The notes under the pieces are model-generated. The model saw only the letters and a program-made list of their open reading frames with translations, was not told the origin of the DNA and did not search any database. This document shows positions 7,058-31,600 of a stretch of DNA of 31,791 nucleotides, piece by piece (position 1 is the stretch's first letter; every line of letters begins with the position of its first letter). Made by a program: the position numbers and the translations under genes. Origin of the DNA: a virus; UHGV virus genome UHGV-1970909; one strand, 5' to 3'.

Positions 7058-7642
7058 ATGTTTAAGTACGTTTTAGCACTAAATTTTATTTTTTTTGGCA
7101 ATACACACAACCTGATGAATTACTGGAAAGCGGAGGTTATCAGAAGAGAGAAATTTTCACTGCACCGTCTTTTAAGAGAGAAAAAACACCGGGGCAGAAA
7201 TTTTATTTTTTGGTGGCGCCTGGCAAATGAAATGTATTTGAATGGTGGGAAAATACACAAAAAAGCAGCAAAGCAAATCAATGCTCACCTGATGGAAAAA
7301 TTTGGCTGCGAAATATCACTTGGTGCAAATATTGGCAAAGGAATAAAAATTCCACATCATCATGGAATTGTCATTCATCATTTGGTAGACATAGGTGAAA
7401 ACTTAGTCATACGCCAAAACACAACAATCGGTCAAAAAGACAGCGATGGTAAATCCTTCAAATTGCACATTGGGGATAATGTTGATATTGGTGCAAACAC
7501 ATGTATTGTTGGCCTGAATCATACAATTGGAAATAATGTGAAAATTGGAGCGATGTCATTCGTTAACTGTGACATCCCGGATGATTGTACGCTTGTTACG
7601 ACTAAAACGACCCGATTCATTAGCCATAACAACATATCATAA
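7058..7642 (+). CDS. Cargo gene: left-handed beta-helix (hexapeptide-repeat) acetyl/acyltransferase, CysE/WcaB-like, 194 aa
   Basis: Translation contains tandem hexapeptide repeats (IGANIGKGIKIP..., IGENLVIRQNTTIGQKD, IGDNVDIGANTCIVGLNHTIGNNVKIGAMSFV); AT-rich; opposite strand to flanking tail genes; sits at the P2 Z/fun position between G and FI. Exact start uncertain. Confidence 0.7.
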   Translation: MFKYVLALNFIFFGNTHNLMNYWKAEVIRREKFSLHRLLREKKHRGRNFIFWWRLANEMYLNGGKIHKKAAKQINAHLMEKFGCEISLGANIGKGIKIPHHHGIVIHHLVDIGENLVIRQNTTIGQKDSDGKSFKLHIGDNVDIGANTCIVGLNHTIGNNVKIGAMSFVNCDIPDDCTLVTTKTTRFISHNNIS

Positions 7643-7652
7643 CGTTGGTGTC

Positions 7653-7688
7653 ATAAAGGGTAGCCTAATTATTATGACTACCCTTTAT
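7653..7688. terminator. Bidirectional hairpin terminator between the convergent acetyltransferase and G genes
   Basis: 11-bp perfect stem ATAAAGGGTAG (7653-7663) / CTACCCTTTAT (7678-7688), lying between the stop codons at 7640-7642 (+) and 7696-7698 (-). Confidence 0.55.
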
Positions 7689-7695
7689 GCGAGTG

Positions 7696-8271
7696 TTAAA
7701 TTTTATCCGGCCAGATAATGTCTGGTGCCTCGTCAGGAACAACCCGGTTTAGTAGTACCCTGTATTGTTTCCATGCCTTTAATTGCGAGATTTCACTCTC
7801 TGTTGCCATGTCAAAATCGACAGCGTCCTGTAAAGTCGCAATATTCTCGTTTGCATTTTTTAAAAGTGTATTTTTTAAATTCTTCGCATCCTCAATCTGT
7901 GCATTTTGCTTTGCAACCGCATCATCAACCCATACTTTACCATTCCATTTTTGCCACTGATTTTCAGGTGCAGCGGTTGTCGTCCCTGCCGGATATTTAC
8001 CCGGTTCGGTTATCTCCACCTGGTGACCTGTTTCAGTGTCATAGACAACCTCACCCCGATGGTCTTCAGTGGTATTCCAGCGCCCGTTTTCAGTGTCGTA
8101 AACGGGAATACATCCCGCGCTGGTTTCTGGCGGTTTTTCACTGGTACAACAGGCAGGAAGTCCGGTAAATGGTGGGATCAGTGCGTCACCTTTTTCAATA
8201 AATTCACAGGTATCTGCGCGATAGTTATAAACGGTAATTGTCCGGCTTTTCCCGGTCATTTTGAAAGTCAT
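7696..8271 (-). CDS. G: Tail fibre assembly chaperone gpG, 191 aa
   Basis: Immediately downstream of and 1-nt overlapping the tail fibre gene H; size and position as P2 G. Confidence 0.85.
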   Translation of the reverse strand: MTFKMTGKSRTITVYNYRADTCEFIEKGDALIPPFTGLPACCTSEKPPETSAGCIPVYDTENGRWNTTEDHRGEVVYDTETGHQVEITEPGKYPAGTTTAAPENQWQKWNGKVWVDDAVAKQNAQIEDAKNLKNTLLKNANENIATLQDAVDFDMATESEISQLKAWKQYRVLLNRVVPDEAPDIIWPDKI

Positions 8272-9965
8272 CAGGCAAGCCTCACGATATAGTTGAATGC
8301 GATGTTTTTGACGGTGTTTTCAGCGTTACCGGCTGCATTAACAGTGATGTTATGTCCGTGAGCCCCTATTGCCACAGTATGACTGTGTGCACCAATACCG
8401 ACATTATGGTTGTGGGCTCCGATGGCTACGGTATGGGCGTGAGCTCCGGCAGAACCTGTTGCCGTGGACGTATATTGAGTTGCCAGGCGTCCGGATGTTA
8501 GCGGCACTTTTCCGCCCTGGTTAGCACCATCTGACGTGGGTATCGGATGCGTGTGCGCCCCTGTGTTATTGGTGGTTTTCGTCCCGTAATCAAAGGTCGT
8601 GGTGGTTTTCGTTCCGTGGTCAAAAGCACTGGTGGTTTTCGTCCCTAAATCGGTGCTCGATGCGCTGGCACCGTGGGCGTGCGATTTAATCCCATCCTGC
8701 TCCTGAGACAAAATTGCGCGCCCACTTGCGGGTTTACCTTTGATTGTCCAGCCCCGCATATCAGGAATAACTCCCGACGGATACACCACAGCAAGCAGCG
8801 GATACGCGGCTTTATCAAAAGTTTGTCCCTGCATGACGGCATAGCCAGCGGGAACACTGTCAGACGGCCACGCAACGGGAGCGCCTACCGGAAAAACATC
8901 ATCAGGCGTCCACGGTGTCCATGCGCCTGTTGAATACTGGCTGCGCGAGTAGCTCCGGGAGCTGTTATAAACCCGGTATACCTGAGTCACTCCGGCATTT
9001 TTATAAATGACCAGCGTCCCGGCGTTATTTTCAGGGTAATGTCTGGCGGCTGAGGTATTGGCGTTCGCTGGCTGAAAGTAAATACCCGGCGTTTTAAGGG
9101 TGTCTAAATCCTCCGTTACCAGCCCAATAGCCTGACCGTCGAAAATATCCTTCGAGGTGACACTGGTGTCAGCATTCAGGGAATGTCCGTTAATTTTACG
9201 CGTGGAGGGAACGCGGCCATTAGCATTATCATTCGCCACTTTGACCGCTTTCGGTGTCGCAGCAAGCACCTCAGACACGCTGTCGGTGGCGCTACTGAGC
9301 TGGACAATCCCCTTCTGTGCCGTGGTCGCGTCCTGAGCCGTATATTTACCTTTCGCAAGGTCATACGCCACCTTGACCGCTTTCGGCGTTGCGGCGAGCG
9401 CCTCAGACGTGCTGTCGGTCGCACTGCTTAACTGCGTGAACCCTTTTTCTTTCAGCGTGGCGTCAGGATGGCGACGGGACTGCTCATGCTCTGCGAGTTT
9501 ATCGTCGACATAATCCTGCGTCGCCATCACCAGTGTCGTATCGATGGACAGCTCGACGGTGTCGATATCGCTCACCATGATCACCATGCGCAGCGTCTGT
9601 GCGCGGCCTGACCCTTCCGCCAGTTCGGGCTTATAACTTTCGGCCATATTGCCGACCGCAATCAGCGTGCCGGTGTCATCGTAAAGCCCCATTTCACGCA
9701 GCCAGAAACCGCCGGTCTCCGGGGGGATCACCAGCTCCGCCACGACATAATTTTTATGTTTTTTGTCCAGGCTGATTTTGTTCAGCGCATGGCGCCAGAC
9801 CTCATTGACGAGTTTTGTCTGACTGGCGTCTGGTTCGGGCAGCTTACCGCCACCGTCCCCGACGGCCATCACCGCAAAATTGACTTTTTTCCCGTTCGGG
9901 AGCGTCGCCGCCGCCAGTTTTTCCGCACCGGCTCGGGTGATAACGGTTTTATATTTCACTGTCAT
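8271..9965 (-). CDS. H: Tail fibre protein gpH, 564 aa, with internal repeats and a His-rich C-terminal tip
   Basis: N-terminus [40 protein letters not shown] is typical of P2-family H; duplicated [22 protein letters not shown] segment; C-terminal HGTKTT and GAHxH repeats. Confidence 0.9.
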
Positions 9966-9976
9966 TGTGTTCTCAC

Positions 9977-10507
9977 TTATCCGGGGTAAACCGTGATGAT
10001 GTCGCCGTCGTAGGTCAGGGCTCCGGTGAAGAGATAACCCGGGATGTCCTGAATAATATTCAGGCCGATAAGATGGCGACTGGCTGGCTTTGCATCGGCA
10101 ATAAGCCTTTCCATTTCGTAATACATTTCCTCGGTGATGCCGGTCTTCAGCACGCCGATATCAAGGCGAAACGTGCCCGGCGGGTCGTTCGTCTCCCACC
10201 ACTCCGTCACGTTAATCAGATACCCGAGCGGCTCGACCACACGACGCACCGCGCCTATCGTCCCTTTATGCGCATGGATAAACCACGCGCTGCGGATAAC
10301 CTCGCGTTTGGTTTCTTCCGGCCAGCTCTCATCCCAGCGATCAACCGAAAACGCCCAGGCCAGCCACGGCAGCAGATTTGCGGGGCAGTTGTCAGGGTTC
10401 CAGAGGTGACGCAGCGGGACAGGGGTATTTTCGATATCCGCGCAGGCGCGCGCCGCCGCCACCTCAAGCGGCGACGAGCCCACCGGCAGCAAACGGTTAT
10501 CACTCAT
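9977..10507 (-). CDS. I: Baseplate protein gpI, 176 aa
   Basis: Synteny J-I-H and size as P2 gpI. Confidence 0.88.
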
Positions 10508-11408
10508 CGTTGCCCCCGATATTTACGCTGTACGCAGTGCAATATGACGCCTGCGTCTCATTGAGTACGATGTCAGCGACCGGCGCGACAAGTTCGACAC
10601 GCTGCACGCCCTCGACGTGAAGCGCGGCATAGATGGCAGACTTGCGGATGTCACGCCCGAGCCGGTGCTGCGCGCTGATATAGGTCTGCAGCTTCGCTTT
10701 TGCCGCACTGAGCACCGGCTCGCTTTCGGGGCCGGGATAAAGATAAAGCGCGGCATCGATGGTGTAGTCGACAATGACCGCCGACTGCACGGTCACGCGG
10801 TCAGCAACCGGCCTCACATCCTCATCGTTCAGCGCATTACGCACCACGGCGAGCAGCTCCCCGGATGCCGCGCCGTTATTCTCCCGGGACAGTACCGACA
10901 CGGTCACGCAGGCAGGTTCCGGGCTGATAACAGAAATATCGGCGACCCGCCCGTCAGCGCTGCGGCCATGAAACTGATACGCACCGGTCGACCCGGCCAC
11001 GCTCATTCCTTCAAAGGCCTGTTGAATACGCAGACGGTAATCGGTGTCCGACTCCATCACAGCAGGTGTCGGCGGCAGCGTGGTTTCATCAGCAGGCGTA
11101 ATAACGAGACGTTCAACGTTGTAATTTGCGCCGATATTGTCGAGGTCGTTTGCGGCAGCACAGGCCAGCATCACCGCCCGTGCCGACTCATTCACCCGCT
11201 GACGCCAGATAACCTCCCGATACGCATTTTCCTGCAGCAGCTTAACAATCGGCTCAGATTCAAGCGTCAGCGTGCGCGCGACCGCGTCCTGTTGCTCTTC
11301 GGGATACAGCGAGACAAGCGTCGCTTTTCGCTCTGTCAGGATGGTTTCATAATCCAGCTCTTCCACAACATCAGGTGCGGCGAGCTGGCTCAGGTCAACA
11401 ATAGCCAT
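10500..11408 (-). CDS. J: Baseplate wedge protein gpJ, 302 aa
   Basis: Synteny W-J-I and size as P2 gpJ. Confidence 0.92.
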   Translation of the reverse strand: MAIVDLSQLAAPDVVEELDYETILTERKATLVSLYPEEQQDAVARTLTLESEPIVKLLQENAYREVIWRQRVNESARAVMLACAAANDLDNIGANYNVERLVITPADETTLPPTPAVMESDTDYRLRIQQAFEGMSVAGSTGAYQFHGRSADGRVADISVISPEPACVTVSVLSRENNGAASGELLAVVRNALNDEDVRPVADRVTVQSAVIVDYTIDAALYLYPGPESEPVLSAAKAKLQTYISAQHRLGRDIRKSAIYAALHVEGVQRVELVAPVADIVLNETQASYCTAYSVNIGGNDE

Positions 11409-11413
11409 AACGT

Positions 11414-12402: not shown

Positions 12403-12789
12403 GGGGAAAGGATGCCGCCGGGGAGGGGCAGCAGCAATCGAGCGGGGTTTTATGAGGGATGAAACAACAAACGGCAACTCAGACTTGTCATTACAGACCA
12501 ACACCTCCTTTGAGGGGCTGATTGAAACCTAGTCGAACATCCAGCGTTGTTCCTTAGCTGCGTGACAATGTTTTTGAACACAGTATTGGCCAAAGCTGAG
12601 CCGAAATTGGCATCCTACGAAAAATTCGATTTCTCTAGCCAGTAGTTCGATTTTAGATTTTGTATTACCTTACTCAATGAGTTTTTGGTCAGATTTTTAA
12701 CACACTCAACGCCAAAAGCGGGCGCTCACGTAAACATATCCATTTTTGCTTGAGACATATTTACTATTACAGTGAGCAGTTTATCTGTT

Positions 12790-12820
12790 TTCCAAAAGAG
12801 GCAGAGGTATATTTCTGCCT
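12790..12820 (-). terminator. Candidate terminator of the AT-rich membrane-protein cargo gene
   Basis: Hairpin AGGCAG (12799-12804) / CTGCCT (12815-12820) with a 10-nt loop, 14 nt past the stop, followed on the minus strand by CTCTTTTGG. Confidence 0.35.
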
Positions 12821-12833
12821 AGCGCATGTTGCC

Positions 12834-13820
12834 TTATGGATTTGACTTACCTGAAGTCTCTTTTTTTATTTCAAATTTCCCACCCTTGAACATGATATTC
12901 GAATCTTTGATTCCATACAAAAGCATTTCATAAGGATGGTTAATTTTTTGTTCTTTTGTAGCGATACTGGAATTCATCAATTGCAACAAAGCCACATGAT
13001 GTTCACTCGCCCCTAACTCTACCATTTTGGTAGCCATGTTGCTTATCTGTTCTCGTTTTAAAAAATCTTCCCGGAGAGAAAGTAACGTTAAACTTCGTGC
13101 GTTACAAAACTTTATCATGTAAACAACAAACGCACCTAACCCAATATAGGAAAACGATAATGCTAAATAAATAGACGGTGTGGTTATTATGTTTTGCCCA
13201 AATATAAGAAAACCCAGCAGGCCAAAAAAATAAAAAACATTCACCAAAATAAACATGTTACTCATCAGAGCCTTTGTACTTCGAGTTGCATCATATTCTT
13301 TCTCCAGATGCTCCAAAAATGATGATATTTTTATTAAATTTAACTTTTCAATTGTTTCCTTCTCTAAAATCTTGAATTGCTCACTCTCTCTAATTAATTT
13401 TTTGGTAGTGTCCTCCACTGTATCATGCAATGATTCAGTGATCGCCTCTTCAATTTTATTTTCAGAAAACACGCTTGTTAAAGCGTAATTGGCTAATTCC
13501 TTTTGTCTTTTCTCGATTAAACTTTCGACATTTTCTCTGTACGCATCAAAATATTTTTGACCACTCTCGTTTAGCAATATTTTACGAATATGAAATTTTA
13601 TTTTCTCATCTGCCATTGGTTGGCTTTCAGTGTTACCATTCTTCTTTGTGTTATTATCTTTAGTTTCCGCATTATACCTGTCCTTGCCTGAATCAAGTAA
13701 GTTCCGTGAAATGAATTTCACCACAGGACCACGCAGAATAGCTATAGCTATTGCCATTGCAAGAATGAATGGTGAAGCATCAATAAATGATCGCGCAAAT
13801 ACGAAAGAGATTTCACTCAT
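12834..13820 (-). CDS. Cargo gene: predicted integral membrane protein with coiled-coil region (about 329 aa), function unknown
   Basis: AT-rich ORF in the gap between V and S (P2 orf30 position). Hydrophobic helices at FILAMAIAIAIL and FILVNVFYFFGLLGFLIFG...IYLALSFSYIGLGAFVVYMI, with a long charged K/E-rich middle. Start chosen at MSEISF (ATG with GGGAA 6 nt upstream); the six-frame ORF begins at an upstream TTG. Confidence 0.7.
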   Translation of the reverse strand: MSEISFVFARSFIDASPFILAMAIAIAILRGPVVKFISRNLLDSGKDRYNAETKDNNTKKNGNTESQPMADEKIKFHIRKILLNESGQKYFDAYRENVESLIEKRQKELANYALTSVFSENKIEEAITESLHDTVEDTTKKLIRESEQFKILEKETIEKLNLIKISSFLEHLEKEYDATRSTKALMSNMFILVNVFYFFGLLGFLIFGQNIITTPSIYLALSFSYIGLGAFVVYMIKFCNARSLTLLSLREDFLKREQISNMATKMVELGASEHHVALLQLMNSSIATKEQKINHPYEMLLYGIKDSNIMFKGGKFEIKKETSGKSNP

Positions 13821-14133
13821 AAACATTTCCCTATCTAAAATCAAAGAGTTTACTTTTACCCATATTTTCTACTGACTGAACCAGTTTGACAAGAGAGATA
13901 AGCATCTTTAATATCGATTTTGCCCATTAGGCATGAAAATAAAAAATACCACATGAAATCAATATCATACAATGACCACGCGTTGACCTCATCCATAACC
14001 AATAAATTATCTGATCATGAAATTCTTGATATGCATTGCAGAATTCGATTTCCACCATTTCGCTTTTAGATGTTCATCAAATATCAACACCCCACTATCA
14101 GTAGTTGACAGATCAACTCGTAGCTAATTCAAA

Positions 14134-14574
14134 TCAGATGAGTAAAAAAAGATCCTCAATTAATTGTATATCGTTCCTGCTAAATCCGAGTAACTGGCGT
14201 TCTGGATATTGCACGTCCTGAGCATGAGGGTTTGGCCGGTCTTTGAGTCCGAACTGATGAATCTGCGCGATGCGTTGCACCTTGCCAGTGAATTCCACCA
14301 CGGCAGTATCATTGCGGCCACTGGCTTTCATGTAGCGACTGGTTCGCAACTTCTGAAACATCGCCCGTTTAATGCGTCCTTTTTTTGCCCTCAGCGGCTG
14401 GCGTTTTCGTGCCTGATACGGCGTGCCATCAGGTGCTTTTTGCTGTTTGATTCGTTGCTGTTGCGATCTGCGCAGTTCCTTCGCAATCTCAGCGGCCAGC
14501 TTGCGCCGACCCACCGGTGATATTGCCGCAATCAGTCCCGCAAGTTTGTCATCAAAAGGTTTAAATTCATTCAT
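14134..14574 (-). CDS. S: Tail completion / virion morphogenesis protein gpS, 146 aa
   Basis: Synteny R-S-(cargo)-V and size as P2 gpS; overlaps R by 8 nt. Confidence 0.82.
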   Translation of the reverse strand: MNEFKPFDDKLAGLIAAISPVGRRKLAAEIAKELRRSQQQRIKQQKAPDGTPYQARKRQPLRAKKGRIKRAMFQKLRTSRYMKASGRNDTAVVEFTGKVQRIAQIHQFGLKDRPNPHAQDVQYPERQLLGFSRNDIQLIEDLFLLI

Positions 14575-15287: not shown

Positions 15288-15555
15288 TCAGCAGCCTCGT
15301 TATGGTTTGTTCACGTCTTACCGCCAGCTCTCCGGCGGCGTTCAGCTCGTCGCTGAGCCTGACCTGCGCGGCTTCATTCGTCCTGGCGATGCGCTGCGAT
15401 ACGGCAAACTGATTTTTCAGCATACCAATCGTCGTCTTTTGCTCATTGGCGACCCGGTTCGCCTTTTCAAAGGAGCGGGATAAATTCGCGTTATCGTGGC
15501 GCAGCCACAGCACCACGGCGAGCAGCCCGGCCAGCAGAATAATCAGCACTTTCAT
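15130..15555 (-). CDS. lysB: Rz-like inner-membrane spanin (LysB-like), 141 aa
   Basis: Start at MKVLIILLAGLLAVVLW (N-terminal TM anchor) followed by a coiled-coil region; ATGA overlap with the endolysin stop. Confidence 0.75.
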   Translation of the reverse strand: MKVLIILLAGLLAVVLWLRHDNANLSRSFEKANRVANEQKTTIGMLKNQFAVSQRIARTNEAAQVRLSDELNAAGELAVRREQTITRLLNENEDLRRWYSADLPDAVRRLHTRTGCASAGHCLQRLPEGEPLPDAGKRAHN

Positions 15556-16061
15556 TGCATCCCCTTCACGCAGTAAGCCCACTCCCGATCGCGTCGGTTT
15601 TCCAGCCCCCGGTTTCGGACACCATTCACGTACACCCAGCGGGTGAGCTGGTCGCACGCCTGCCACCACTGATGACGCTTTATATACGAGACCAGCGTCG
15701 AACGGCAGGCAGCGCCCGTTCCCACGTTAAAGGCAAAACTGACCAGCGTGTCATAGACGCGCGGTGGCATATCCACCGGCACACAGACCGCGAGCCGTTG
15801 CTCAGTGTTGAGTACATCCGCAACGAGGTTTTCCGCCGCACGCTGCTCGGTGATATCCCCTTTAGGGACGACACCGGCAGTGTGGCCAATGCCCGACGTC
15901 CACACGCCCGCGCTGCACTGGTAAGGCGTCAGGCGACATCCTTCAAGGTCAGCAATCAGCGCCAGCCCCTCGGGCGAGGTGTTAAGCAGACGAAAGTCAG
16001 GCACCAGTGCCGCCAGCGCCAGCACGGCGGCCACACTGCAGCGTTTAATGATTGAGCTCAC
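15552..16061 (-). CDS. K: Endolysin, lysozyme-like, probably signal-anchor-release (SAR) type, 169 aa
   Basis: N-terminal weakly hydrophobic stretch CSVAAVLALAALVP, then an E...C...T arrangement (ADLEGCRLTPYQCSAGVWT) resembling SAR endolysins of the T4-lysozyme fold; position between holin and spanins. Confidence 0.82.
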   Translation of the reverse strand: MSSIIKRCSVAAVLALAALVPDFRLLNTSPEGLALIADLEGCRLTPYQCSAGVWTSGIGHTAGVVPKGDITEQRAAENLVADVLNTEQRLAVCVPVDMPPRVYDTLVSFAFNVGTGAACRSTLVSYIKRHQWWQACDQLTRWVYVNGVRNRGLENRRDREWAYCVKGMQ

Positions 16062-16266
16062 GTATCGCCCCCTTATCGAGTCCGAGCGATTTCAGATAGC
16101 GAAAGGTTTTGCGCTTAAACCAGTAGTTCGTCAGCGCGGTAAAAATGGCGCAGGCACTACCCACATACAACGCCAGCTTTTCGGGCGACATCGCCCCGAA
16201 ATAGGCCAGTCCCACGGCCAGCCAGTAAGCGATAAAGGTCGTGATTTTTTCCACACTCAGTCCCAT
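16045..16266 (-). CDS. Y: Holin (two-TM, pinholin-like), 73 aa
   Basis: Two hydrophobic helices (ITTFIAYWLAVGLAYFGAM; LALYVGSACAIFTALTNYW) and a basic C-terminus; immediately upstream of the endolysin. Confidence 0.6.
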   Translation of the reverse strand: MGLSVEKITTFIAYWLAVGLAYFGAMSPEKLALYVGSACAIFTALTNYWFKRKTFRYLKSLGLDKGAIRELNH

Positions 16267-22927: not shown

Positions 22928-22946
22928 TGCTATCCCCGCCTCGCCT
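22928..22946 (-). other. cos: cos site (19-nt cohesive-end sequence, minus strand GGCGAGGCGGGGATAGCAC)
   Basis: One mismatch from the P2 cohesive end as I recall it (GGCGAGGCGGGGAAAGCAC); located just beyond Q as in P2/186. Confidence 0.7.
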
Positions 22947-23194
22947 GCGCGCTTGATGGGGCGGTTTTAATGCAGATGCCAGCTTCGATTTTTCCTTGTC
23001 AATATTGACTTGAGTTACCGAGAATTTAGTCTGAAAAAAATGCAAATTAATGCAACAGAATGCCTTGTTTTCGCAGAAAGCTATCTGAACTCAAAATGGT
23101 ATTTACAACCCCCTTGTATTGATTATCATTATGAAAATGCACGTTTTACTAATCTATCACAAAAAACTCATGCATCAGTTTTGAAGGAGTTAGC

Positions 23195-24460
23195 ATGAAT
23201 ATAATGAAATGTTTTGAATGCGAAACCTGTGGTACACACATTGATTGTAGAATAGGACTTTCAAATCGAGATGTGCAGCCTTTTCAGTTTGCTTGTCCTG
23301 AATGTGAAGAAAAAATTACTTTTAATATTTTGGGTGAAGACTTCAACCTAGAAGGGGCCATTGATCTTGTTGATTTTGAGGCACCATTTACGGGGGGTAA
23401 TCATTTCATAGATTTACACTTGGATTTTCCCGCCTCATTTGAAAAATATGAAATGGGATTTACTCCATTCATGCGAGCTGCTCAGGAAATCGGTCATGAG
23501 AACTATCAGCATCTTAATGAGAGACTGAATGCTCTTAACTACTTATACCCTAAAAAGAGAGAGTTAAGACGCTTAATAACTCAGTATAAACGAGGCGAAG
23601 TAAATACATTTCGAAAAACCTGCAATAAGCTTCTTGGTATACAATTAAAATCTAATAAGAAACAAGATATATTAGCCGCTTTGTATACAGCAACATCCAT
23701 AATGTCTTCACCTTTTACCATACATCAACATAATGAAGAAATAAGCACTAAAATGCCTGATTTATTACGTTCGCTTGATTACACTCACAAAATAAAAACA
23801 AGGGCGTTTTTTGAACAGTTAATTAAAACTGGTTTCTTACGAAATGTACACCATGAATGCCTATCCTTGTACCCAAAAATCGTAGAATTAGACCTACCAT
23901 TAAGGCCAGCCCTTTATTTTGACTACAAGCAATTAAATGAAGGGGATAAAATTTCAGGGCGGGTTTCAACTGCTGACTTTGATAGTTGCAGTAATTTATA
24001 TAAGGATCTATCTGAAGTCTTTTCGCGATTATTAACATTAGTTGCGGGGCTTAATAATCTGCTAAAACGTGGAGATTATGATCTGTTTGATGATTCAGTT
24101 CGTTTAAATAAAAAACAAGAATTAATTAAAGAACTTGCATCTTTAAATAATTTTACCAATATGGATTTAGGTAAAAAAATAGAGTGTATTGATGATTCAT
24201 TTTATTACATCGACAAGAGTGCAATTAATCACAAGTTACGAAATGCAATTGCCCATTATAAATATGAGTACGAAGAATCTACACAAATGATTTTCTATTA
24301 CCCAAATAGAGAAGGAATGAGCAGAGAGAACATGTATGAAATTTCATTTCTTGAATTTCTTAGATATTCTTTGATGCTTTTTCGTGAGGTTCATTCATTG
24401 AATCACATTGTTAAATCATTGTTTTTTTACACTGTGCTTGTTTTAAAGAAGGACATTTAA
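23195..24460 (+). CDS. Cargo gene: N-terminal zinc-ribbon + C-terminal HEPN-like (R-x4-H) domain protein, 421 aa; candidate abortive-infection RNase
   Basis: AT-rich ORF with a strong AAGGAG Shine-Dalgarno; N-terminus CFECETCGTH...ACPECEEK (C-x2-C...C-x2-C); C-terminal motif HKLRNAIAHYKYEY (R349-N-x3-H354, nt 24239-24256); sits between cos and A, where P2 carries tin/old. Confidence 0.75.
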   Translation: MNIMKCFECETCGTHIDCRIGLSNRDVQPFQFACPECEEKITFNILGEDFNLEGAIDLVDFEAPFTGGNHFIDLHLDFPASFEKYEMGFTPFMRAAQEIGHENYQHLNERLNALNYLYPKKRELRRLITQYKRGEVNTFRKTCNKLLGIQLKSNKKQDILAALYTATSIMSSPFTIHQHNEEISTKMPDLLRSLDYTHKIKTRAFFEQLIKTGFLRNVHHECLSLYPKIVELDLPLRPALYFDYKQLNEGDKISGRVSTADFDSCSNLYKDLSEVFSRLLTLVAGLNNLLKRGDYDLFDDSVRLNKKQELIKELASLNNFTNMDLGKKIECIDDSFYYIDKSAINHKLRNAIAHYKYEYEESTQMIFYYPNREGMSRENMYEISFLEFLRYSLMLFREVHSLNHIVKSLFFYTVLVLKKDI

Positions 24461-24471
24461 AGCTAAAGGTA

Positions 24472-24509
24472 AGCTATGTAAATTACGTTTTTAATTACAT
24501 AGCTTTTAT
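24472..24509 (+). terminator. Rho-independent terminator of the HEPN cargo gene
   Basis: About 12-bp stem AGCTATGTAA(A)TT (24472-24484) / AATTACATAGCT (24493-24504) with loop ACGTTTTT, followed by TTTTATCTG; 12 nt after the stop. Confidence 0.6.
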
Positions 24510-24568
24510 CTGTTAATAATCTTTACGAATTTCTCAGATATTTGTTTAAGATCTTATATTATCATAAC

Positions 24569-24751
24569 CTACTCAGTCTTATAAAAAATATCATCTTCGG
24601 TTTCATTATTTTCGCTGTTTGCTAGATCAGCAATGAGAGTGAGCGCAAGCTTTAAATCTGCAGGCTTGCAGTTTGCAATCAGAGATACCTCGGCAATGAA
24701 TTGCACACAAGCCCACTTTTGCTGCGTTCGGCTGAAATGTTCCCCAACCAT
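24569..24751 (-). CDS. Small SOS-regulated ORF (60 aa, acidic C-terminus); candidate Tum-like antirepressor
   Basis: ATG preceded by GGGAGAG; a strong LexA box and a TTGCCA -35 lie directly upstream; position (far end from the immunity region, near cos) matches the 186 tum arrangement, but the protein is shorter than 186 Tum (146 aa). Confidence 0.55.
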   Translation of the reverse strand: MVGEHFSRTQQKWACVQFIAEVSLIANCKPADLKLALTLIADLANSENNETEDDIFYKTE

Positions 24752-24771
24752 GAAATCTCTCCCAATATTTT

Positions 24772-24791
24772 GACTGTATATTTATACAGTA
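24772..24791. promoter_or_regulatory. LexA (SOS) box GACTGTATATTTATACAGTA overlapping the -10 region of the small-ORF promoter
   Basis: CTGT-N8(AT-rich)-ACAG palindrome closely matching the consensus TACTGTATATATATACAGTA; minus strand shows TTGCCA -35 about 17 nt upstream of a TATAAA/TAAATA -10 inside the box. Confidence 0.7.
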
Positions 24792-24865
24792 TCACGTATT
24801 GGCAATTGATGGGAAGAGAAAAAGTGGATCACGTAGGTGTTGTATGTGCATGATATGGATGCGAA

Positions 24866-27088: not shown

Positions 27089-27089
27089 T

Positions 27090-27538: not shown

Positions 27539-27607
27539 AACTAACTCTCCTGATTTCGGGCAATAAAATGCCCGGCGGGTTTACGCCAGAAAATTAATTG
27601 TGATTAA

Positions 27608-27808: not shown

Positions 27809-27968
27809 GTTTAATACCTTTAATAATAAAGTGGACAATACGAACAATTAAAAAGCCTGACGACTTCGGCGGCTTTGTTTCCAGCCCTTTTAATAATTCG
27901 GACTGTGAGCAGCACGGATGCCAGCGCTTGCCATCTTTCCCCGCAATCCAACCGTGGCCGTAATGCAT
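27795..27968 (-). CDS. Possible small early ORF, about 57 aa (uncertain)
   Basis: Fills the gap between cII and the next gene; no convincing Shine-Dalgarno; overlaps neighbours. Confidence 0.25.
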   Translation of the reverse strand: MHYGHGWIAGKDGKRWHPCCSQSELLKGLETKPPKSSGFLIVRIVHFIIKGIKHVTR

Positions 27969-28029
27969 GCCGGGACTTTGCTTAACGAGCAGAGAAGCGA
28001 ATGAAGGTTCATTTTTCAGCACAGGTACC

Positions 28030-28539
28030 TCATACCAAACCGAATGTTGCGCCAATGCCGGTCATGGTGTCGACGACACTCGACATTGCCGGGTTAGCCT
28101 GGAGGCGAGCCTGTAACGCCAGCGCCGACAATGACAGCATGCGAATACCGGCGTTAACGCTTTCAACCATGTTGTGTTTACGAGCAGAGGACAGGCGTTC
28201 ATCAGATGCAGCACCGTTCGCCAGTTCGCCGAGTTCGCTCATTGCGCGCATGACATAGGACTGCAATTTATCTTTAGCCAACTCATTAACCGGCACACAA
28301 GGTAGACAATGGATCTGCGCCAGAAAGCCATCAACGAGGGTTGAGTCTTCGGTCAGATCAGTCAGCAGCCATAACTCAGGCGGTGTGAACTGGTGAGGCT
28401 GTTCCGGGTTAAGTTTGTTACGTAACGTCTGAACATTCATACCCGCACGCTCGGCCAGCTTCGCCATGTTGTGACGCTGCGCGAAAGCCCGGCACGCTTC
28501 GTCATAGTGGGGATGTTTGGAAATTTGAAAATCAAACAT
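28030..28539 (-). CDS. cII: CII-like transcriptional regulator (186 CII family), 169 aa
   Basis: Same length as 186 CII as I recall it; helix-turn-helix segment MAKLAERAGMNVQTLRNKL; position downstream of apl. Confidence 0.78.
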   Translation of the reverse strand: MFDFQISKHPHYDEACRAFAQRHNMAKLAERAGMNVQTLRNKLNPEQPHQFTPPELWLLTDLTEDSTLVDGFLAQIHCLPCVPVNELAKDKLQSYVMRAMSELGELANGAASDERLSSARKHNMVESVNAGIRMLSLSALALQARLQANPAMSSVVDTMTGIGATFGLV

Positions 28540-28574
28540 GTATTTTTCCTCGCTATCTTAAATAATCGAGTTGC

Positions 28575-28799
28575 TCAGGCTGCCACATAGCGGCAATTGA
28601 GACCCTGAGCCAAGAGTCGAGCACGGAAGGCAACCATATTGATACGCGCTGCACCACCGTCTTTTTTACGAGGCATCAGGAGGAGGTCTCCATCAGCAAC
28701 CATCTGTTTTACAGTACGAATGCAGTAGCCGTAGCATTCGGCAAATTCGTCATAAGTCATGAGATCAGCGCCGGGCGGGATTGCAATTTGTGGAGTCAT
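28575..28799 (-). CDS. apl: Apl/Cox-like excisionase and switch repressor, 74 aa
   Basis: Small HTH protein (MTYDEFAECYGYCIRTVKQMV) as first gene of the lytic operon, divergent from cI, as in 186 (Apl) and P2 (Cox). Confidence 0.72.
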   Translation of the reverse strand: MTPQIAIPPGADLMTYDEFAECYGYCIRTVKQMVADGDLLLMPRKKDGGAARINMVAFRARLLAQGLNCRYVAA

Positions 28800-28864
28800 A
28801 AGTAATCATCTCCGGTTATTAGTTGGTTTGGTGCATTGGCGTGCATTTTTAAATTCAAGTGAGA

Positions 28865-28892
28865 ATCTTATCTCGAAAATGCGAGATGTCAA
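28865..28892 (-). promoter_or_regulatory. Candidate lytic promoter pR (minus-strand -35 TTGACA, 16-bp spacer, -10 TAAGAT) with palindromic operator in the spacer
   Basis: Minus strand TTGACA (28887-28892) and TAAGAT (28865-28870); perfect inverted repeat ATCTCG-N6-CGAGAT (28870-28887) lies between them; about 60 bp upstream of apl. Confidence 0.5.
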
Positions 28893-28924
28893 TTTGGATT
28901 TTCGCGATAACTCGGATTTTTAAG

Positions 28925-29503
28925 ATGAAATTGGATGAGTTAGAGGGTGGAAAAGCAGTGCTGCAGCGCATCCTTGATGCGTATGGCTTCACCATGCAAA
29001 AACAACTCGGTGACCTGCATGAGCTGTCATCGGGAACAATTAGCACGTGGGTTAGGCGTAATTTTTTCCCCGGGGATGTTGTTGTTGCATGCGCTTTGGA
29101 TACTGGGGTGTCTTTACGTTGGTTGGCAACAGGGAAGGGGAACAAGTTTGATGCTGACCATACTAATGGCGAAATGAAAACATTAGACCGATTGGATATT
29201 GTTGCAGGTAAGCTGCAGGAAAACGGTCATTGGATTGTTGATGCTAATCTTTTTTCTACTGACGCGACGCACCCTAATTACATAGTAAAAGGCCAGCAGT
29301 CCTGGATAGTTGACTTCGATATGACTGATATAGCAAATGGCCGATGGATGCTCAGTATCGACGGGGATCATGATGTCTATGACGTTGCAAGGATCCCGGG
29401 GAACAGAATAAAAGTCAGCAACGCTGATGCCGATTTTCAATGCTCAGTTTCTGAGGTTAAGTGTATTGGCATGGTGCTGGTAAGCCTGACGAAATCTAGC
29501 TAA
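28925..29503 (+). CDS. cI: CI immunity repressor (186-CI-like), 192 aa
   Basis: Start at MKLDELEGGKAVLQRILDAYGF gives 192 aa, the 186 CI length as I recall it; N-terminal HTH; immediately upstream of int on the same strand. Confidence 0.85.
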   Translation: MKLDELEGGKAVLQRILDAYGFTMQKQLGDLHELSSGTISTWVRRNFFPGDVVVACALDTGVSLRWLATGKGNKFDADHTNGEMKTLDRLDIVAGKLQENGHWIVDANLFSTDATHPNYIVKGQQSWIVDFDMTDIANGRWMLSIDGDHDVYDVARIPGNRIKVSNADADFQCSVSEVKCIGMVLVSLTKSS

Positions 29504-29507
29504 TGAT

Positions 29508-30536
29508 ATGAGTGTTAAAAAACTGACATCGGGTGAATGGCTTTGTGATTTCCGCGTCGACGGGGCTGAAAGTCGCCGCGTGCGTAAGAAGTTTTCAACC
29601 AAAGGTGAAGCCCTTGCCTTCGAGCAGTATTACCGAGAAGAGGCACAAAATAAGCCGTGGATGGGTGAGAAGGAAGACCGTCGACGTTTGAGTGAACTGA
29701 TTGAGCTTTGGCATAACCTCCATGGTCAGTCGCTCGCTGCCAGCAAATCACGATTGGCCAAACTGCACATTGTTTGCCGAGGTCTTGGTGATCCGATAGC
29801 AACCCAGCTTACCGCTAAAGATTTTGCCCATTATCGTGATAAGCGCCTCAAGGGTGAAATCGACAATGGCTATCACGCGAATCCTGAAAAGTGGATTGCG
29901 AAACCCGTCACTGTGAACCGGGAGCAGCAGTACCTTGAGGCCGTTTTCAATGAGCTGAAACGCTTGGGGGAGTGGAGTTTGCCAAATCCTCTCGAAGGTG
30001 TGCGAGTTTTCAAAGAAGCCGAAAAAGAAATGTCCTGGCTTACCCAGCCTCAAATTCGCGAAGTGCTCAACGCGTGTGAATGCTACGGAAAAATTTACTT
30101 AACTCGCATCGTCAAAGTATGCCTTGCGACCGGTGCTCGATGGAGCGAGGCCGAACGCCTTACTCGTTCACAGCTTTCGCCCCATAAGTTGACTTTCACG
30201 AAAACGAAGGGAAAGAAGAATCGTACAGTACCGATCCCTCGCTGGCTGTATGACGAGTTGGCTCCTTTGCAGGGAAAAATGTTCCACCCCTGTTATCAGG
30301 AGTTCAAGAAAATGCTCGCACTGACCGATATTGTGTTGGCTGAAGGGCAGAAGACCCACGTGTTACGCCATACGTTTGCAAGCCATTTTATGATGAATGG
30401 GGGTAACATCTTGGTACTCCAACGGATTCTTGGTCACGCGAACATACGGGAGACGATGCGTTATGCTCACTTTGCACCGGATCATTTAGAGGAAGCTGCT
30501 CAATTGAATCCAATTGCAAAACTTATTACTCATTGA
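29508..30536 (+). CDS. int: Tyrosine integrase, 342 aa
   Basis: C-terminal catalytic signature ...THVLRHTFASHFMMNGGNILVLQRILGHANIRETMRYAHF (H-x-x-R ... Y); downstream of cI. Confidence 0.93.
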   Translation: MSVKKLTSGEWLCDFRVDGAESRRVRKKFSTKGEALAFEQYYREEAQNKPWMGEKEDRRRLSELIELWHNLHGQSLAASKSRLAKLHIVCRGLGDPIATQLTAKDFAHYRDKRLKGEIDNGYHANPEKWIAKPVTVNREQQYLEAVFNELKRLGEWSLPNPLEGVRVFKEAEKEMSWLTQPQIREVLNACECYGKIYLTRIVKVCLATGARWSEAERLTRSQLSPHKLTFTKTKGKKNRTVPIPRWLYDELAPLQGKMFHPCYQEFKKMLALTDIVLAEGQKTHVLRHTFASHFMMNGGNILVLQRILGHANIRETMRYAHFAPDHLEEAAQLNPIAKLITH

Positions 30537-30595
30537 TTTTTTTTCTATGAATGTTTTGCGTGAAGATTCTTGTCCATTATTATTAAGGAGTTTGA

Positions 30596-31600
30596 ATGCC
30601 TACCAATCGTACTAGATACTCATTTTTAAGCCCAATGAGTATCAGTGATAGCGTCAGTGTTTTTTTTGCAGCCCTTGATTTTTTTTCAATCCCTGGACAG
30701 GACAAGGTTAGGAAAACTATAGCTATACCTCAAACCAATAATGGTATTCATCCTCTTCCTGCTGGTTCTTTCATGGATTATATTAAGGCGTTAAATATTT
30801 TGGCTGAGCCTGATCGCCACATGCAAAATATACGAAAGCTACTTAACAAAATGGAAGGTGTAGGTTTGTTAGTACCTATGGGGAACTCTGGGAGTGTATT
30901 TTTCCCAACCAATTATTACTTCTTGAAAGAATTAACTGAGAGAGAAAAGAAAGGTCGATTCTGGTTGTCTGAATGCTTGGGGCCTGAGTATGTGTACAAG
31001 TTTTTTGGTAATTTAATCATACATATCGTAGGCATGACATCAGATGGAGATGAACATGGAGGCACTGGAGTTATTATTAATGATAAACTGGTTTTGACAT
31101 GCAAGCATGTAATCGATGAAATGGTTATCAATGATACTCAATTTATTAATGGTAGTCAGATCAAAGTAGTCAACACGCATACACATAATGAAATTGATGT
31201 TGGAATTATTGAGTTCGAACCAAATAGCTTTATTGTAAATGGGAATGTGTGTTTTGATTCTCCGCACTTAAATGATGATATATATGTTTTAGGCTATCCA
31301 CCAATTCCATATTCAAAAGAAGTTGCGCCAATAATGCAGAAAGGTGAGATTACTAACCCTGAAATTACTACATTGGATAATCATACGGTTTTTCTTTTCT
31401 CTGCTATAGCTAGACCTGGTAATAGTGGAGGTCCAATTATTGCTAGGAATGGCAGGATCCTTGGGATAGTCACGAAAGAGCTATCACTTCAAGAAAGCAA
31501 TAACTTCCCGTTCTTTGCGGGGATTCCAACAAATGAAATAGTAACAGCCCTCTCTGATATGGGGTTTGGAGGGATACTTCCTGTCGAAAATTATCAGTAG
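30596..31600 (+). CDS. Cargo gene: two-domain protein with C-terminal trypsin/chymotrypsin-like serine protease (H171, D201, S277 in GNSGGP) and an unrecognised N-terminal domain, 334 aa
   Basis: AT-rich ORF with a perfect AAGGAG Shine-Dalgarno; motifs TCKHVI, EIDVGIIEF and ARPGNSGGPII in H-D-S order; no signal peptide evident; sits between int and the right integrase arm repeats. Confidence 0.75.
   Translation: MPTNRTRYSFLSPMSISDSVSVFFAALDFFSIPGQDKVRKTIAIPQTNNGIHPLPAGSFMDYIKALNILAEPDRHMQNIRKLLNKMEGVGLLVPMGNSGSVFFPTNYYFLKELTEREKKGRFWLSECLGPEYVYKFFGNLIIHIVGMTSDGDEHGGTGVIINDKLVLTCKHVIDEMVINDTQFINGSQIKVVNTHTHNEIDVGIIEFEPNSFIVNGNVCFDSPHLNDDIYVLGYPPIPYSKEVAPIMQKGEITNPEITTLDNHTVFLFSAIARPGNSGGPIIARNGRILGIVTKELSLQESNNFPFFAGIPTNEIVTALSDMGFGGILPVENYQ

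What the first reader, a model, noticed from the sequence alone, without database searches (positions are those of the whole stretch)
7058..31600. Four AT-rich single-gene islands in a GC-rich backbone coincide with variable P2-family cargo slots
By eye, the segments 7058-7642, 12834-13820, 23000-24560 and 30540-31620 are much more AT-rich than the surrounding phage genes, and each has its own promoter-like and terminator-like sequences. They sit at Z/fun, orf30, tin/old and the int-att junction respectively. This is the pattern expected for independently acquired morons, and P2-family cargo slots are reported to concentrate anti-phage genes.
Basis: partly seen in the sequence, partly recalled or inferred. 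Interest (0 to 1): 0.5.

Follow-up and report, generated by a model that had tools for sequence, protein, structure and literature searches.

The report
AT-rich cargo genes in P2-like prophage
Four low-GC, one-gene inserts in an E. coli P2/186-type prophage sit in the phage family's known swap-in cargo slots; the pattern is textbook, but the four genes are uncharacterised candidates for phage exclusion or cell-surface modification.

Summary
The four segments have GC 0.32-0.37 against a 0.54 backbone (z -4.2 to -6.5). 5519 of 5933 low-GC bases fall in the stretches that six relatives lack (0 of 5000 shifts match this). The window is a P2-structural/186-early hybrid prophage inserted at the rplS stop codon of E. 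coli. The islands lie at G|FI (Z/fun), S|V (orf30), cos/Q|A (tin/old) and int|attP. Relatives have these slots empty or filled with unrelated, equally AT-rich genes. This repeats what is published for P2 (old, tin, fun and orf30 are 0.33-0.35 GC) and for P2 defence hotspots, so the pattern is already known.

Each island holds one intact gene, and none matches a complete system in PADLOC:
- A: a truncated CysE/WcaB-like left-handed beta-helix acetyltransferase.
- B: a 3-TM protein.
- C: a 421-aa Zn-ribbon protein with an invariant RNxIxH motif and weak HEPN-like fold matches. It occurs sporadically across Proteobacteria, next to recombinases and defence genes.
- D: a cytoplasmic S1 protease with a conserved N-terminal domain, probably co-transcribed with cI-int.

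Families A and B also occur in other P2-family slots. The claim that each island has its own promoter and terminator holds only in part. An anti-phage role is inferred, not shown.

The parts
42..55 (+). att core copy 1 (AGCGTCTTAACTAA), overlapping the rplS stop codon; left prophage boundary
   Evidence: An exact 14-bp direct repeat with 31737-31750. The K-12 empty site reads rplS...AGCGTCTTAACTAA|GATTTCGC, which equals window 31751 onward.
132..170 (+). Three ATGTCCAC repeats (132, 143, 163): putative Int arm-type binding sites of attP
   Evidence: The octamer occurs only 5 times in the window, all in one orientation, and flanks the att core 3+2 as annotated for 186. Their function is inferred.
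6924..7744 (.). Island 1, Z/fun slot between FI (tail sheath) and G (tail fibre assembly)
   Evidence: Absent from all six relatives. GC 0.378. No near match in 5426 E. coli genomes.
7058..7642 (+). Gene A, 194 aa: left-handed beta-helix acetyltransferase, CysE/EpsC/WcaB-like but truncated
   Evidence: NCBIfam EpsC 1.3e-23, cysE 4e-20 and WcaB 7e-18, all far below their cut-offs. phrog_2154 1e-67. PDB serine acetyltransferase 6wye 4.7e-15, covering only the catalytic LbH part, residues 132-263 of 293. Homologues lie beside tail-fibre assembly genes or in the int-att slot of other phages.
7652..7688 (.). Hairpin between the convergent genes A and G
   Evidence: RNAfold -19.3 kcal/mol for 7640-7700, with no clear T tract.
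12470..14152 (.). Island 2, orf30 slot between V and S
   Evidence: Absent from P2, 186, ENT4, RCIP0057 and E. coli A15. Present at 99.9% identity in 5 E. coli genomes. GC 0.355.
12834..13820 (-). Gene B, 328 aa (ATG at 13820): three-TM membrane protein with a coiled-coil linker and a conserved C-terminal HPYE motif
   Evidence: Hydrophobic segments at about 10-38, 184-213 and 215-239. 100% identical to WP_001290067.1. Small family of 87 representatives. No Pfam or PADLOC family. No similarity to P2 Orf30. Terminator-like hairpin plus TCTTTT downstream.
22934..22945 (-). cos-like core (reverse complement of GGCGAGGCGGGG)
   Evidence: Pattern match. The position corresponds to P2 cos between Q and old.
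22980..24557 (.). Island 3, tin/old (cos-proximal Q|A) slot
   Evidence: Covered by 0 of 6 relatives. GC 0.324. No near match in E. coli genomes.
23102..23129 (+). Promoter-like site upstream of gene C (TTTACA-16-TATCAT, 10/12)
   Evidence: A consensus match only. A strong SD (AAGGAG) lies 6 nt before the ATG.
23195..24460 (+). Gene C, 421 aa: N-terminal CxxC..CxxC Zn-ribbon domain, helical body, invariant R349-N-x-I-x-H354 (Rx4H)
24467..24511 (+). Terminator-like hairpin after gene C, followed by TTTTAT
   Evidence: RNAfold -13.9 kcal/mol.
24569..24751 (-). 60-aa backbone gene (phrog_1993), low GC but conserved in 186-like relatives; not part of the swapped cassette
   Evidence: phrog_1993 4e-31. 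Alignment to Klebsiella phage RCIP0057 resumes at 24557. Called in all copies.
28925..30536 (+). cI (186-type repressor) and int: the lysogenic operon immediately upstream of gene D
   Evidence: Pfam Phage_CI_repr and Phage_CI_C. Gene calls of 192 aa and 342 aa. Same order as 186 cI-int-orf69.
30537..31622 (.). Island 4, int|attP slot
   Evidence: Not covered by any relative from about 30512. GC 0.364. No near match in E. coli genomes except attP/host DNA from 31624.
30596..31600 (+). Gene D, 334 aa: conserved ~145-aa N-terminal domain (helices plus a beta hairpin) and a C-terminal S1/HtrA-MarP-like serine protease with an intact H171-D201-S277 triad; no signal peptide or TM
   Evidence: Trypsin_2 5e-16. 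The protease domain alone matches PADLOC RT-Protease_XI, LmuA and HamA models. 242 homologues of uniform length. Invariant triad. AF2 pLDDT 90.2. Foldseek Rv3671c/DegS 1e-11. No hydrophobic segment. SD AAGGAG; starts 60 bp after the int stop.
31623..31641 (+). Two ATGTCCAC repeats: putative Int arm-type sites on the other attP arm
31737..31750 (+). att core copy 2; right prophage boundary, host DNA from 31751

Best explanation
The window is an E. coli prophage with a P2-type structural module and a 186-type early/immunity module. It is integrated at the 3' end of rplS. The four AT-rich islands are accessory cargo cassettes ('morons', or lysogenic-conversion genes), one gene each. They occupy the four intergenic positions where Peduoviridae genomes tolerate and exchange foreign DNA: G|FI, S|V, cos/Q|A and int|attP. 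They were brought in by recombination from a shared low-GC mobile gene pool and are not needed for phage growth.

Most likely they are expressed from the prophage and benefit the lysogen. C and B would use their own promoters. D would be the last gene of the cI-int lysogenic transcript.

My committed functional reading follows. Steps marked 'inferred' are not shown.
- C is a stand-alone abortive-infection-type effector. A Zn-ribbon sensor or binding domain is joined to a HEPN-like Rx4H nuclease domain (inferred, about 0.45).
- D is a cytoplasmic serine-protease effector whose N-terminal domain gates activity (inferred, about 0.4).
- B is an inner-membrane exclusion or Abi protein (inferred, about 0.35).
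- A O-acetylates a sugar or surface polysaccharide rather than serine, altering a phage receptor or antigen (inferred, about 0.4).
For: Composition:
- Islands are 0.32-0.37 GC against 0.54 for the backbone. GC3 is 0.27-0.36 against 0.59-0.73.
- Low-GC and variable segments coincide, with 0 of 5000 shifts reaching the observed overlap.

Slots:
- Positions match the P2 and 186 maps.
- Relatives have the slots empty or filled with unrelated cargo.
- That cargo is equally AT-rich: P2 orf30, fun, tin and old are 0.33-0.35; the retron and DUF3696 cargo are 0.31-0.35.

Mobility:
- Family B occurs in the S|V slot and directly after int in other P2-like contigs.
- Family A occurs in G|FI and int-att slots.
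- Family C is found in 79 species across alpha-, beta- and gamma-proteobacteria. Only one of these is in a P2-like Q|A slot. There is no conserved neighbour; neighbours include integrases, resolvases, GAPS4 and GmrSD.
- A 50% homologue of D sits beside an int remnant at the same rplS/yfiB locus in another genus.

Intactness:
- All four ORFs are full length, with family-wide invariant catalytic or motif residues.

Boundaries:
- The 14-bp att core is confirmed by the K-12 empty site, which places D inside the phage.

Literature:
- Defence hotspots at A|Q, fun, downstream of gpL and int-att (PMC9122126, PMC9519451, PMC13586616, doi 10.1101/2024.10.15.618418).
Against: - No island gene matches a complete known defence system. 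Only D's generic protease domain hits PADLOC models.
- Promoter and terminator consensus counts are not above shuffles, and A and D lack a recognisable own promoter.
- B diverges roughly in step with the backbone in one relative (B 89% against 87-95% for the flanks), so it can be inherited vertically for long periods.
- Hotspots also carry non-defence cargo, such as partition systems and CDT (PMC9122126).
- There are no expression or phenotype data.
Confidence: 0.8

Rival explanations
1. The cargo genes are lysogenic-conversion or fitness genes unrelated to phage defence, for example surface-antigen modification for host interaction, membrane physiology or proteolysis. The hotspot location says nothing specific about function.
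For: A is a sugar/serine-type LbH acetyltransferase, a class usually tied to polysaccharide modification. PADLOC finds no complete system. P2 hotspots are known to carry partition systems and cytolethal distending toxin (PMC9122126). Only about 21% of old/tin-hotspot cargo families hit DefenseFinder (doi 10.1101/2024.10.15.618418).
Against: C homologues sit beside GAPS4, GmrSD and recombinases. D's protease domain is closest to defence-associated protease effectors in PADLOC. Untested unknown-function genes in the equivalent P4 hotspot gave protection in 6 of 8 trials (PMC13586616). Receptor modification by A would itself act as phage exclusion.
Confidence: 0.3
2. Gene D is not cargo of the present phage. 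It is a leftover of an older prophage at the rplS site and lies outside the true att boundary.
For: In another genus, a 50% homologue of D persists with only a 72-aa int fragment and no prophage. In one contig it lies outside a newer 186-like prophage. E2348/69 has an int remnant plus an unrelated gene at this site.
Against: Here int is complete at 342 aa, and D starts 60 bp after its stop with a strong SD. The ATGTCCAC arm-type repeats and the 14-bp core lie distal to D. The K-12 empty site matches only from 31737. Several assemblies carry int-D-att identically.
Confidence: 0.07
3. The AT-rich segments are intrinsic phage regulatory or essential regions whose composition reflects function (for example late promoters, cos or att architecture) rather than foreign origin.
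For: The islands abut late promoters, cos (22934-22945) and attP arms. AT-rich DNA is common at such sites.
Against: Each island is mostly one long intact ORF with GC3 of 0.27-0.36. The islands are missing from relatives that are viable phages, such as P2, 186 and RCIP0057.
Confidence: 0.03
4. The islands are decaying, non-functional remnants.
For: No expression data exist. A and D lack a recognisable own promoter.
Against: The ORFs are full length and match family length: about 421, 334 and 328 aa. Catalytic or motif residues are invariant across families. The copies in several assemblies are identical. Defence pseudogenes are rare in P2 (PMC13586616).
Confidence: 0.05

Closest known systems
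Phage P2 lysogenic-conversion genes old, tin, fun(Z) and orf30
   Same: Same four kinds of position on the P2 map for three of the islands (S|V, G|FI, Q/cos|A). Same strong AT bias: 0.33-0.35 GC against a 0.53-0.56 backbone. Non-essential, one or two genes per slot. From my own knowledge, Calendar et al. 1998 already noted the unusually high AT content of the P2 conversion genes; this reference is cited in doi 10.1101/2024.10.15.618418.
   Different: There is no sequence relationship. B against Orf30 gives no similarity. C and A have no match to old, tin or fun regions in the DNA comparison. The domain content differs: acetyltransferase, 3-TM protein, Zn-ribbon/Rx4H protein and S1 protease.
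P2-like prophage defence hotspots (Rousset 2022 PMC9122126; Vassallo 2022 PMC9519451; Egorov 2024 doi 10.1101/2024.10.15.618418; Moura de Sousa 2026 PMC13586616)
   Same: The hotspots are gpA|gpQ next to cos, the Z/fun locus, the region downstream of gpL within the tail genes, and int|att. Cargo is swapped rapidly, and cargo families are shared with other mobile elements.
   Different: None of the four genes is recognised by PADLOC 2.0 as a system. Islands 1, 3 and 4 are absent from 5426 complete E. coli genomes, so they were probably not sampled in E. coli-centred surveys.
Phage 186 accessory genes (orf69 after int; tum and orf97 next to cos)
   Same: The early region here is 186-like: cI, CP76/cII, fil, dhr. 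186 also carries a gene between int and attP as the last gene of the lysogenic operon, and its att core is flanked by 3+2 arm-type repeats.
   Different: D is unrelated to orf69 in size and domains. tum and orf97 are replaced by C. The attB is the rplS 3' end, not a tRNA-Ile gene.
Lambdoid 'morons' (Juhala/Hendrix concept; Cumby 2012, as cited in PMC9122126)
   Same: An extra gene lies between genes that are adjacent in relatives. Its composition is deviant, and C and B have a plausible own promoter and terminator.
   Different: A and D lack a recognisable own promoter. D looks like an operon extension of cI-int. The Q|A slot is not observed empty in any relative examined here: cargo is swapped rather than added.
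HEPN-domain abortive-infection and toxin RNases (Csm6, HEPN-MNT toxins, Las1, AbiA C-terminal domain)
Protease effector modules of defence systems (retron type XI RT-protease, Lamassu LmuA-protease, Hachiman HamA-protease, Avs1)
   Same: D's trypsin-like domain aligns to these PADLOC models at 8e-16 to 5e-3. It is cytoplasmic, and the H-D-S triad is intact.
   Different: Only the protease domain matches. D has no RT, SMC or STAND partner or fusion. It is a stand-alone 334-aa protein with its own conserved N-terminal domain and no conserved neighbour.

Membership tests
P2-family (Peduoviridae) prophage | Conserved gene order Q-P / O-N-M-L-X-lysis-R-S / V-W-J-I-H-G / FI-FII-E-T-U-D-ogr, plus gpA replication and int | tested here: met
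   DNA matches to 220 phage records, including P2-like phages. Co-linear with annotated P2, 186 and E. coli prophages.
P2-family cargo slot / hotspot | Located between the same conserved flanking genes as a published hotspot (gpA|gpQ-cos, G|FI, S|V, int|att) | tested here: met
   Flanks identified by alignment and Pfam. Published hotspots are in PMC9122126, PMC9519451 and PMC13586616.
P2-family cargo slot / hotspot | Content differs among otherwise co-linear relatives | tested here: met
   Island 2 is shared by 5 of 5426 E. coli genomes.
Moron (sensu Hendrix) | Nucleotide composition differs from the surrounding phage genes | tested here: met
Moron (sensu Hendrix) | Own promoter and terminator flanking the gene | tested here: inconclusive
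   Scan counts are not above shuffles. Plausible elements exist for C and B. A has only a hairpin, and D has neither.
Known anti-phage defence system (PADLOC-DB 2.0) | Full-length match to a system's component models | tested here: not met
   A, B and C have no hits. D matches only through its protease domain. B family members give scattered single hits only.
HEPN superfamily (gene C) | Conserved Rx4-6H motif | tested here: met
   R349, N350, I352 and H354 are invariant in 32 sequences at 50-75% identity to the query.
HEPN superfamily (gene C) | Four-helix HEPN fold recognisable by structure or profile comparison | tested here: inconclusive
HEPN superfamily (gene C) | RNase activity dependent on the R and H residues | not testable with these tools
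   Needs biochemistry.
S1 (chymotrypsin/HtrA-like) serine peptidase (gene D) | Pfam Trypsin_2/Trypsin above the gathering score and a His-Asp-Ser triad | tested here: met
   60.2 bits against 27.6. H171, D201 and S277 are invariant. Foldseek to Rv3671c/DegS at 1e-11.
HtrA/DegP family proper (gene D) | C-terminal PDZ domain(s) and periplasmic targeting | tested here: not met
   No PDZ hit. NCBIfam scores are far below the cut-offs. There is no hydrophobic N-terminus.
Serine O-acetyltransferase CysE (gene A) | Equivalog-level score and the N-terminal SATase helical domain | tested here: not met
   cysE 72.4 bits against 210.65, and EpsC 83.5 against 150. The alignment covers only the LbH part of solved SATs. 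By my reading of that alignment, the CysE Asp143 and Arg192/His193 positions are not conserved (inference from memory of the E. coli CysE residues).
Left-handed beta-helix acyltransferase superfamily (gene A) | Hexapeptide-repeat LbH domain with significant similarity to solved members | tested here: met
   30 PDB sequences at E <= 1e-3, the best at 4.7e-15. Pfam Hexapep is sub-threshold at 22.7 against 27.

The most novel reading that the evidence does not exclude
Gene C founds an undescribed single-gene anti-phage family: about 421 aa, a Zn-ribbon plus an Rx4H HEPN-like domain, and at least 281 homologues. It is spread patchily across alpha-, beta- and gamma-proteobacteria on islands, plasmids and P2-like prophages. 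Gene D is a second undescribed stand-alone system, an N-terminal sensor domain fused to a cytoplasmic S1 protease, that rides at the integrase-att junction and survives as a remnant after prophage loss. In addition, cargo families (A, B) hop between different slots of the same phage family, which would mean that the slots draw on one common cassette pool.
Probability: 0.35. Interest if true: 0.5.

Novelty: new member of a known kind. Interest (0 to 1): 0.3.

Why it matters
The pattern itself (AT-rich foreign genes in fixed P2 slots) has been known since the 1990s and has been mined systematically since 2022. Its value here is as a pointer: one prophage offers four intact, uncharacterised, single-gene candidates. 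Two of them belong to well-conserved, widely dispersed families that have no entry in Pfam or PADLOC as systems: C, the Zn-ribbon/Rx4H protein, and D, the N-domain plus S1 protease. Single-gene candidates are cheap to clone and test. The int|att position of D, and its survival next to integrase remnants, also illustrates how prophage cargo can become fixed chromosomal islets.

Tried and rejected
1. I first took ATGTCCACGCAG (143 / 31634) as the att core and read the ~90% match of 31624-31791 as a sign of a non-E. coli host. I rejected both. The K-12 empty site shows a 14-bp core at the rplS stop. Host flanks on an identical contig are 99.4% identical to K-12. The ~90% stretch is phage attP-arm DNA.
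2. A 62-aa ORF (23010-23198) overlapping the start of C was considered as a partner gene. It is not called in public copies, has no family hit, and there is no conserved neighbour in 79 loci.
3. B as a homologue of P2 Orf30: no similarity.
4. D as the same gene as the trypsin-like peptidase at the ogr-att end of E. coli WP2-S18: only 23% identity, within the protease domain.
5. No tRNA and no Rfam family in the window.
6. tblastn of C against 50,697 phage records: no match. Viral-contig scans: 2 loci for C and none for D with single-protein queries.
7. PDB sequence searches for C and for the D N-domain: nothing significant. Pfam on the isolated domains: nothing.
8. The afdb50 fold library was unavailable.
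9. A literature search for accession or PHROG identifiers of the cargo found no papers. A search for phage 'serine acetyltransferase' function returned only annotation-level mentions.

Full report
OBSERVATION

A sliding-window profile and direct counts show four deep GC troughs in a 0.54-GC backbone. The segments 7058-7642, 12834-13820, 23000-24560 and 30540-31620 have GC of 0.366, 0.341, 0.322 and 0.369. All lie below the minimum of same-length backbone windows (z -4.2 to -6.5). Third-position GC of the four ORFs is 0.27-0.36, against 0.59-0.73 for structural genes.

WHAT THE WINDOW IS

The window matches P2-like phages and prophages over the whole structural module. It is co-linear with annotated P2 and 186. 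The late genes are 93-97% identical to E. coli prophages at the yegQ/yegR site, which carry P2-type immunity. The early region here is 186-type: cI with Phage_CI_repr and Phage_CI_C, plus CP76, fil and dhr.

The left end of the window is the last 55 nt of rplS. A 14-bp direct repeat, AGCGTCTTAACTAA, lies at 42-55 and at 31737-31750. The uninterrupted K-12 locus reads rplS...AGCGTCTTAACTAA|GATTTCGC, which is identical to window 31751 onward. That fixes the prophage boundaries.

The octamer ATGTCCAC occurs exactly five times in the window, all in the same orientation: three just inside the left core and two just inside the right core. This resembles the 3+2 arm-type Int sites annotated for 186, but the function is inferred.

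Host flanks on an identical public contig are 99.4% identical to K-12, so the host is E. coli. My earlier idea of a different host was wrong.

SLOTS AND VARIABILITY

I ran local blastn of the window against six relatives: two E. coli prophages, P2, 186, Enterobacter phage ENT4 and Klebsiella phage RCIP0057. It leaves gaps at 6924-7744, about 12417/12470-14152/14178, 22946/22980-24557/24772 and about 30497/30512-31736. These are the G|FI (Z/fun), S|V (orf30), cos/Q|A (tin/old) and int|attP positions. A cos-like core sits at 22934-22945, 35 bp before island 3.

GC falls with the number of relatives that cover a base: 0.368 for bases covered by none, and 0.573 for bases covered by all six. Of 5933 low-GC bases, 5519 lie in segments covered by at most one relative. 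The permutation mean is 1472, and 0 of 5000 circular shifts reach the observed value.

Slot content in relatives:
- G|FI: empty in both E. coli relatives, 186 and RCIP0057; fun(Z) in P2.
- S|V: empty in 186 and RCIP0057; Orf30 in P2; an unrelated 597-aa gene in strain A15; the identical gene B in WP2-S18.
- Q|A: old+tin in P2; tum+orf97 in 186; a retron RT plus nuclease; a DUF3696 pair.
- int|att: nothing in P2; orf69 in 186; an unrelated ~309-aa gene in E. coli prophages with the same attP (E2348/69, FORC64); Abi plus an acetyltransferase in ESSI2_ev040.

Cargo in relatives is equally AT-rich. P2 orf30, fun, tin and old are 0.33-0.35; the retron, DUF3696 and 597-aa genes are 0.31-0.35.

Among 5426 complete E. 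coli genomes, island 2 occurs in 5, at 99.9% identity, which is higher than the 97.4% of its flanks. Islands 1, 3 and 4 occur in none.

These four are not the only variable blocks. The tail-fibre genes H/G, a lysis segment (15309-16260) and the immunity block 28542-30353 (GC 0.475) also differ.

PROMOTERS AND TERMINATORS

Consensus scans give counts that are indistinguishable from shuffles, or only marginally above them. Inspection and folding give the following:
- C: TTTACA-16-TATCAT at 23102-23129, a strong SD, and a hairpin followed by TTTTAT.
- B: TTGTCA-17-GAAAAT at 13892-13864, and a hairpin followed by TCTTTT.
- A: only a -19 kcal/mol hairpin shared with the convergent G gene.
- D: neither element. 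It starts 60 bp after the int stop with AAGGAG. Like 186 orf69, it is probably the last gene of the cI-int lysogenic transcript (inferred).

GENE A (7058-7642, 194 aa)

A is an LbH acetyltransferase. Its best NCBIfam hits are EpsC, CysE and WcaB, all far below their cut-offs. It matches phrog_2154. It aligns only to the catalytic LbH part of solved serine acetyltransferases and lacks the N-terminal SATase domain. It is therefore not a CysE equivalog. I infer a sugar or polysaccharide acceptor.

Homologues lie convergent to tail-fibre assembly genes (vB_EcoM-613R2) or in the int-att slot next to an Abi gene (ESSI2_ev040).

GENE B (12834-13820, 328 aa)

B has three hydrophobic segments and a coiled-coil-like linker. 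Its family is small, with 87 representatives. The conserved C-terminal part carries an invariant HPxE, which is HPYE in most members. It has no Pfam or PADLOC family and is unrelated to P2 Orf30.

In viral contigs, the family occupies the S|V slot (100, 89 and 64% identity) and, in two 186-like contigs, the position directly after int (58-62%).

GENE C (23195-24460, 421 aa)

C matches phrog_13366 but no Pfam, NCBIfam or PADLOC family. It has 281 homologues of uniform length, at 50-81% identity among those listed (Pseudomonas, Vibrio, Klebsiella, Serratia, Shewanella and others). A genome scan found it in 79 species-representative genomes across alpha-, beta- and gamma-proteobacteria. Only one of these, Serratia sp. 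Ag1, has it between a P2-type portal and gpA.

There is no conserved neighbour. Recurrent neighbours are integrases and resolvases. In Klebsiella it sits next to GAPS4, and in Vibrio it lies on an element with GmrSD, a methylase and serine recombinases.

The alignment shows invariant C9/C12/C34/C37 and an invariant R349-N-x-I-x-H354, plus R397/H400/N403/H404. AF2 is confident, with pLDDT 89.6 and pTM 0.90.

I therefore treat 'HEPN-like nuclease effector' as the leading hypothesis, with confidence of about 0.45.

GENE D (30596-31600, 334 aa)

D has a Trypsin_2 domain. The H171-D201-S277 triad is invariant. It has no hydrophobic N-terminus. AF2 gives pLDDT 90.2, and the protease domain resembles Rv3671c/MarP and DegS. 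The ~145-residue N-terminal domain is conserved across 242 homologues. It is helical with a beta hairpin, which could be winged-helix-like, but it matches nothing by sequence.

PADLOC matches involve only the protease domain of RT-Protease_XI, LmuA, HamA and Avs1b.

A 50% homologue lies at the same rplS/yfiB locus in another enterobacterial genus. There it sits beside a 72-aa int fragment with no prophage, and in one contig it lies distal to a newer 186-like prophage. Cargo at this junction can evidently outlive its phage. In Pseudomonas the family is a stand-alone chromosomal gene.

COMPARISON WITH WHAT IS KNOWN

The AT-rich, non-essential genes old, tin, fun(Z) and orf30 of P2 are the classical precedent (computed; Calendar 1998 is from my own knowledge and is cited in doi 10.1101/2024.10.15.618418). 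Published work on these positions:
- The A|Q cos-proximal hotspot: Rousset 2022 (PMC9122126).
- The A|Q and fun loci: Vassallo 2022 (PMC9519451).
- Both classical hotspots in 1008 P2-like phages: Egorov 2024.
- int-att (3% of systems), int-primase (8%) and downstream of gpL (16%): Moura de Sousa 2026 (PMC13586616).

That last paper also reports that most unknown-function P4 hotspot genes tested gave protection.

The finding is therefore a correct rediscovery of a known architecture. What is new is the specific cargo.

VERDICT

The moron/cargo-slot interpretation is supported. Anti-phage function is plausible but unshown. Novelty: new members of a known kind. Interest is modest at 0.3. The most interesting leads are C and D as untested single-gene defence candidates, and the evidence that cargo families move between slots.

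Noticed in passing
window 42-55 and 31737-31750; 56-131: The prophage integrates at the last 14 bp of rplS and duplicates them. After integration, rplS is followed by a phage-supplied terminator hairpin (about 94-124, -30 kcal/mol for 56-135) instead of the native one.
   Followed up: partly
window 132-170 and 31623-31641: ATGTCCAC occurs exactly five times in 31.8 kb, all in the same orientation, arranged 3+2 around the att core. These are probably Int arm-type sites, as in 186.
   Followed up: partly
L024, L025, L026 (metagenome contigs, another enterobacterial genus): At the same rplS/yfiB locus there is a 72-aa integrase fragment plus a 50% homologue of gene D and no prophage. In L025 a newer 186-like prophage has inserted proximal to this remnant. 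Cargo at the int-att junction outlives its phage.
   Followed up: partly
L113-L117 (IMG/VR contigs); L032, L033: The same cargo families appear in different P2-family slots. B occurs in S|V and directly after int. The A-like acetyltransferase occurs in G|FI and in int-att.
   Followed up: partly
L001 4255-5106 (E. coli WP2-S18-ESBL-07): A different trypsin-like peptidase (283 aa, 23% identical to D within the protease domain, GC 0.388) sits at the opposite prophage end, between ogr and att. Att-proximal proteases may recur in P2-like prophages.
   Followed up: partly
window 22980-24860: No tum (SOS antirepressor) homologue was seen, although the early region is 186-like. The slot that holds tum/orf97 in 186 and tum in RCIP0057 holds gene C here, so SOS inducibility may be lost.
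   Followed up: no
window 7696-9965: The tail-fibre assembly gene G has low GC3 (0.40). G and the C-terminal part of H are not alignable to P2, 186, ENT4 or RCIP0057, which is consistent with receptor-binding module swapping next to the Z/fun slot.
   Followed up: no
window 15309-16260: A lysis-region segment is not alignable to P2 or 186 but is present in the E. coli relatives. It is a further variable block with normal GC.
   Followed up: no
window 5638-7029: The mechanical ORF for the tail sheath is over-extended from a TTG at 7029. Relatives and the sequence support an ATG start at 6831, which leaves room for the late promoter region before island 1.
   Followed up: partly
window 24569-24751: A 60-aa gene (phrog_1993) next to gpA has fairly low GC3 (0.43; the surrounding 400-bp windows are about 0.33 GC) but is conserved in 186-like relatives. 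Low GC alone does not mark swapped cargo.
   Followed up: partly
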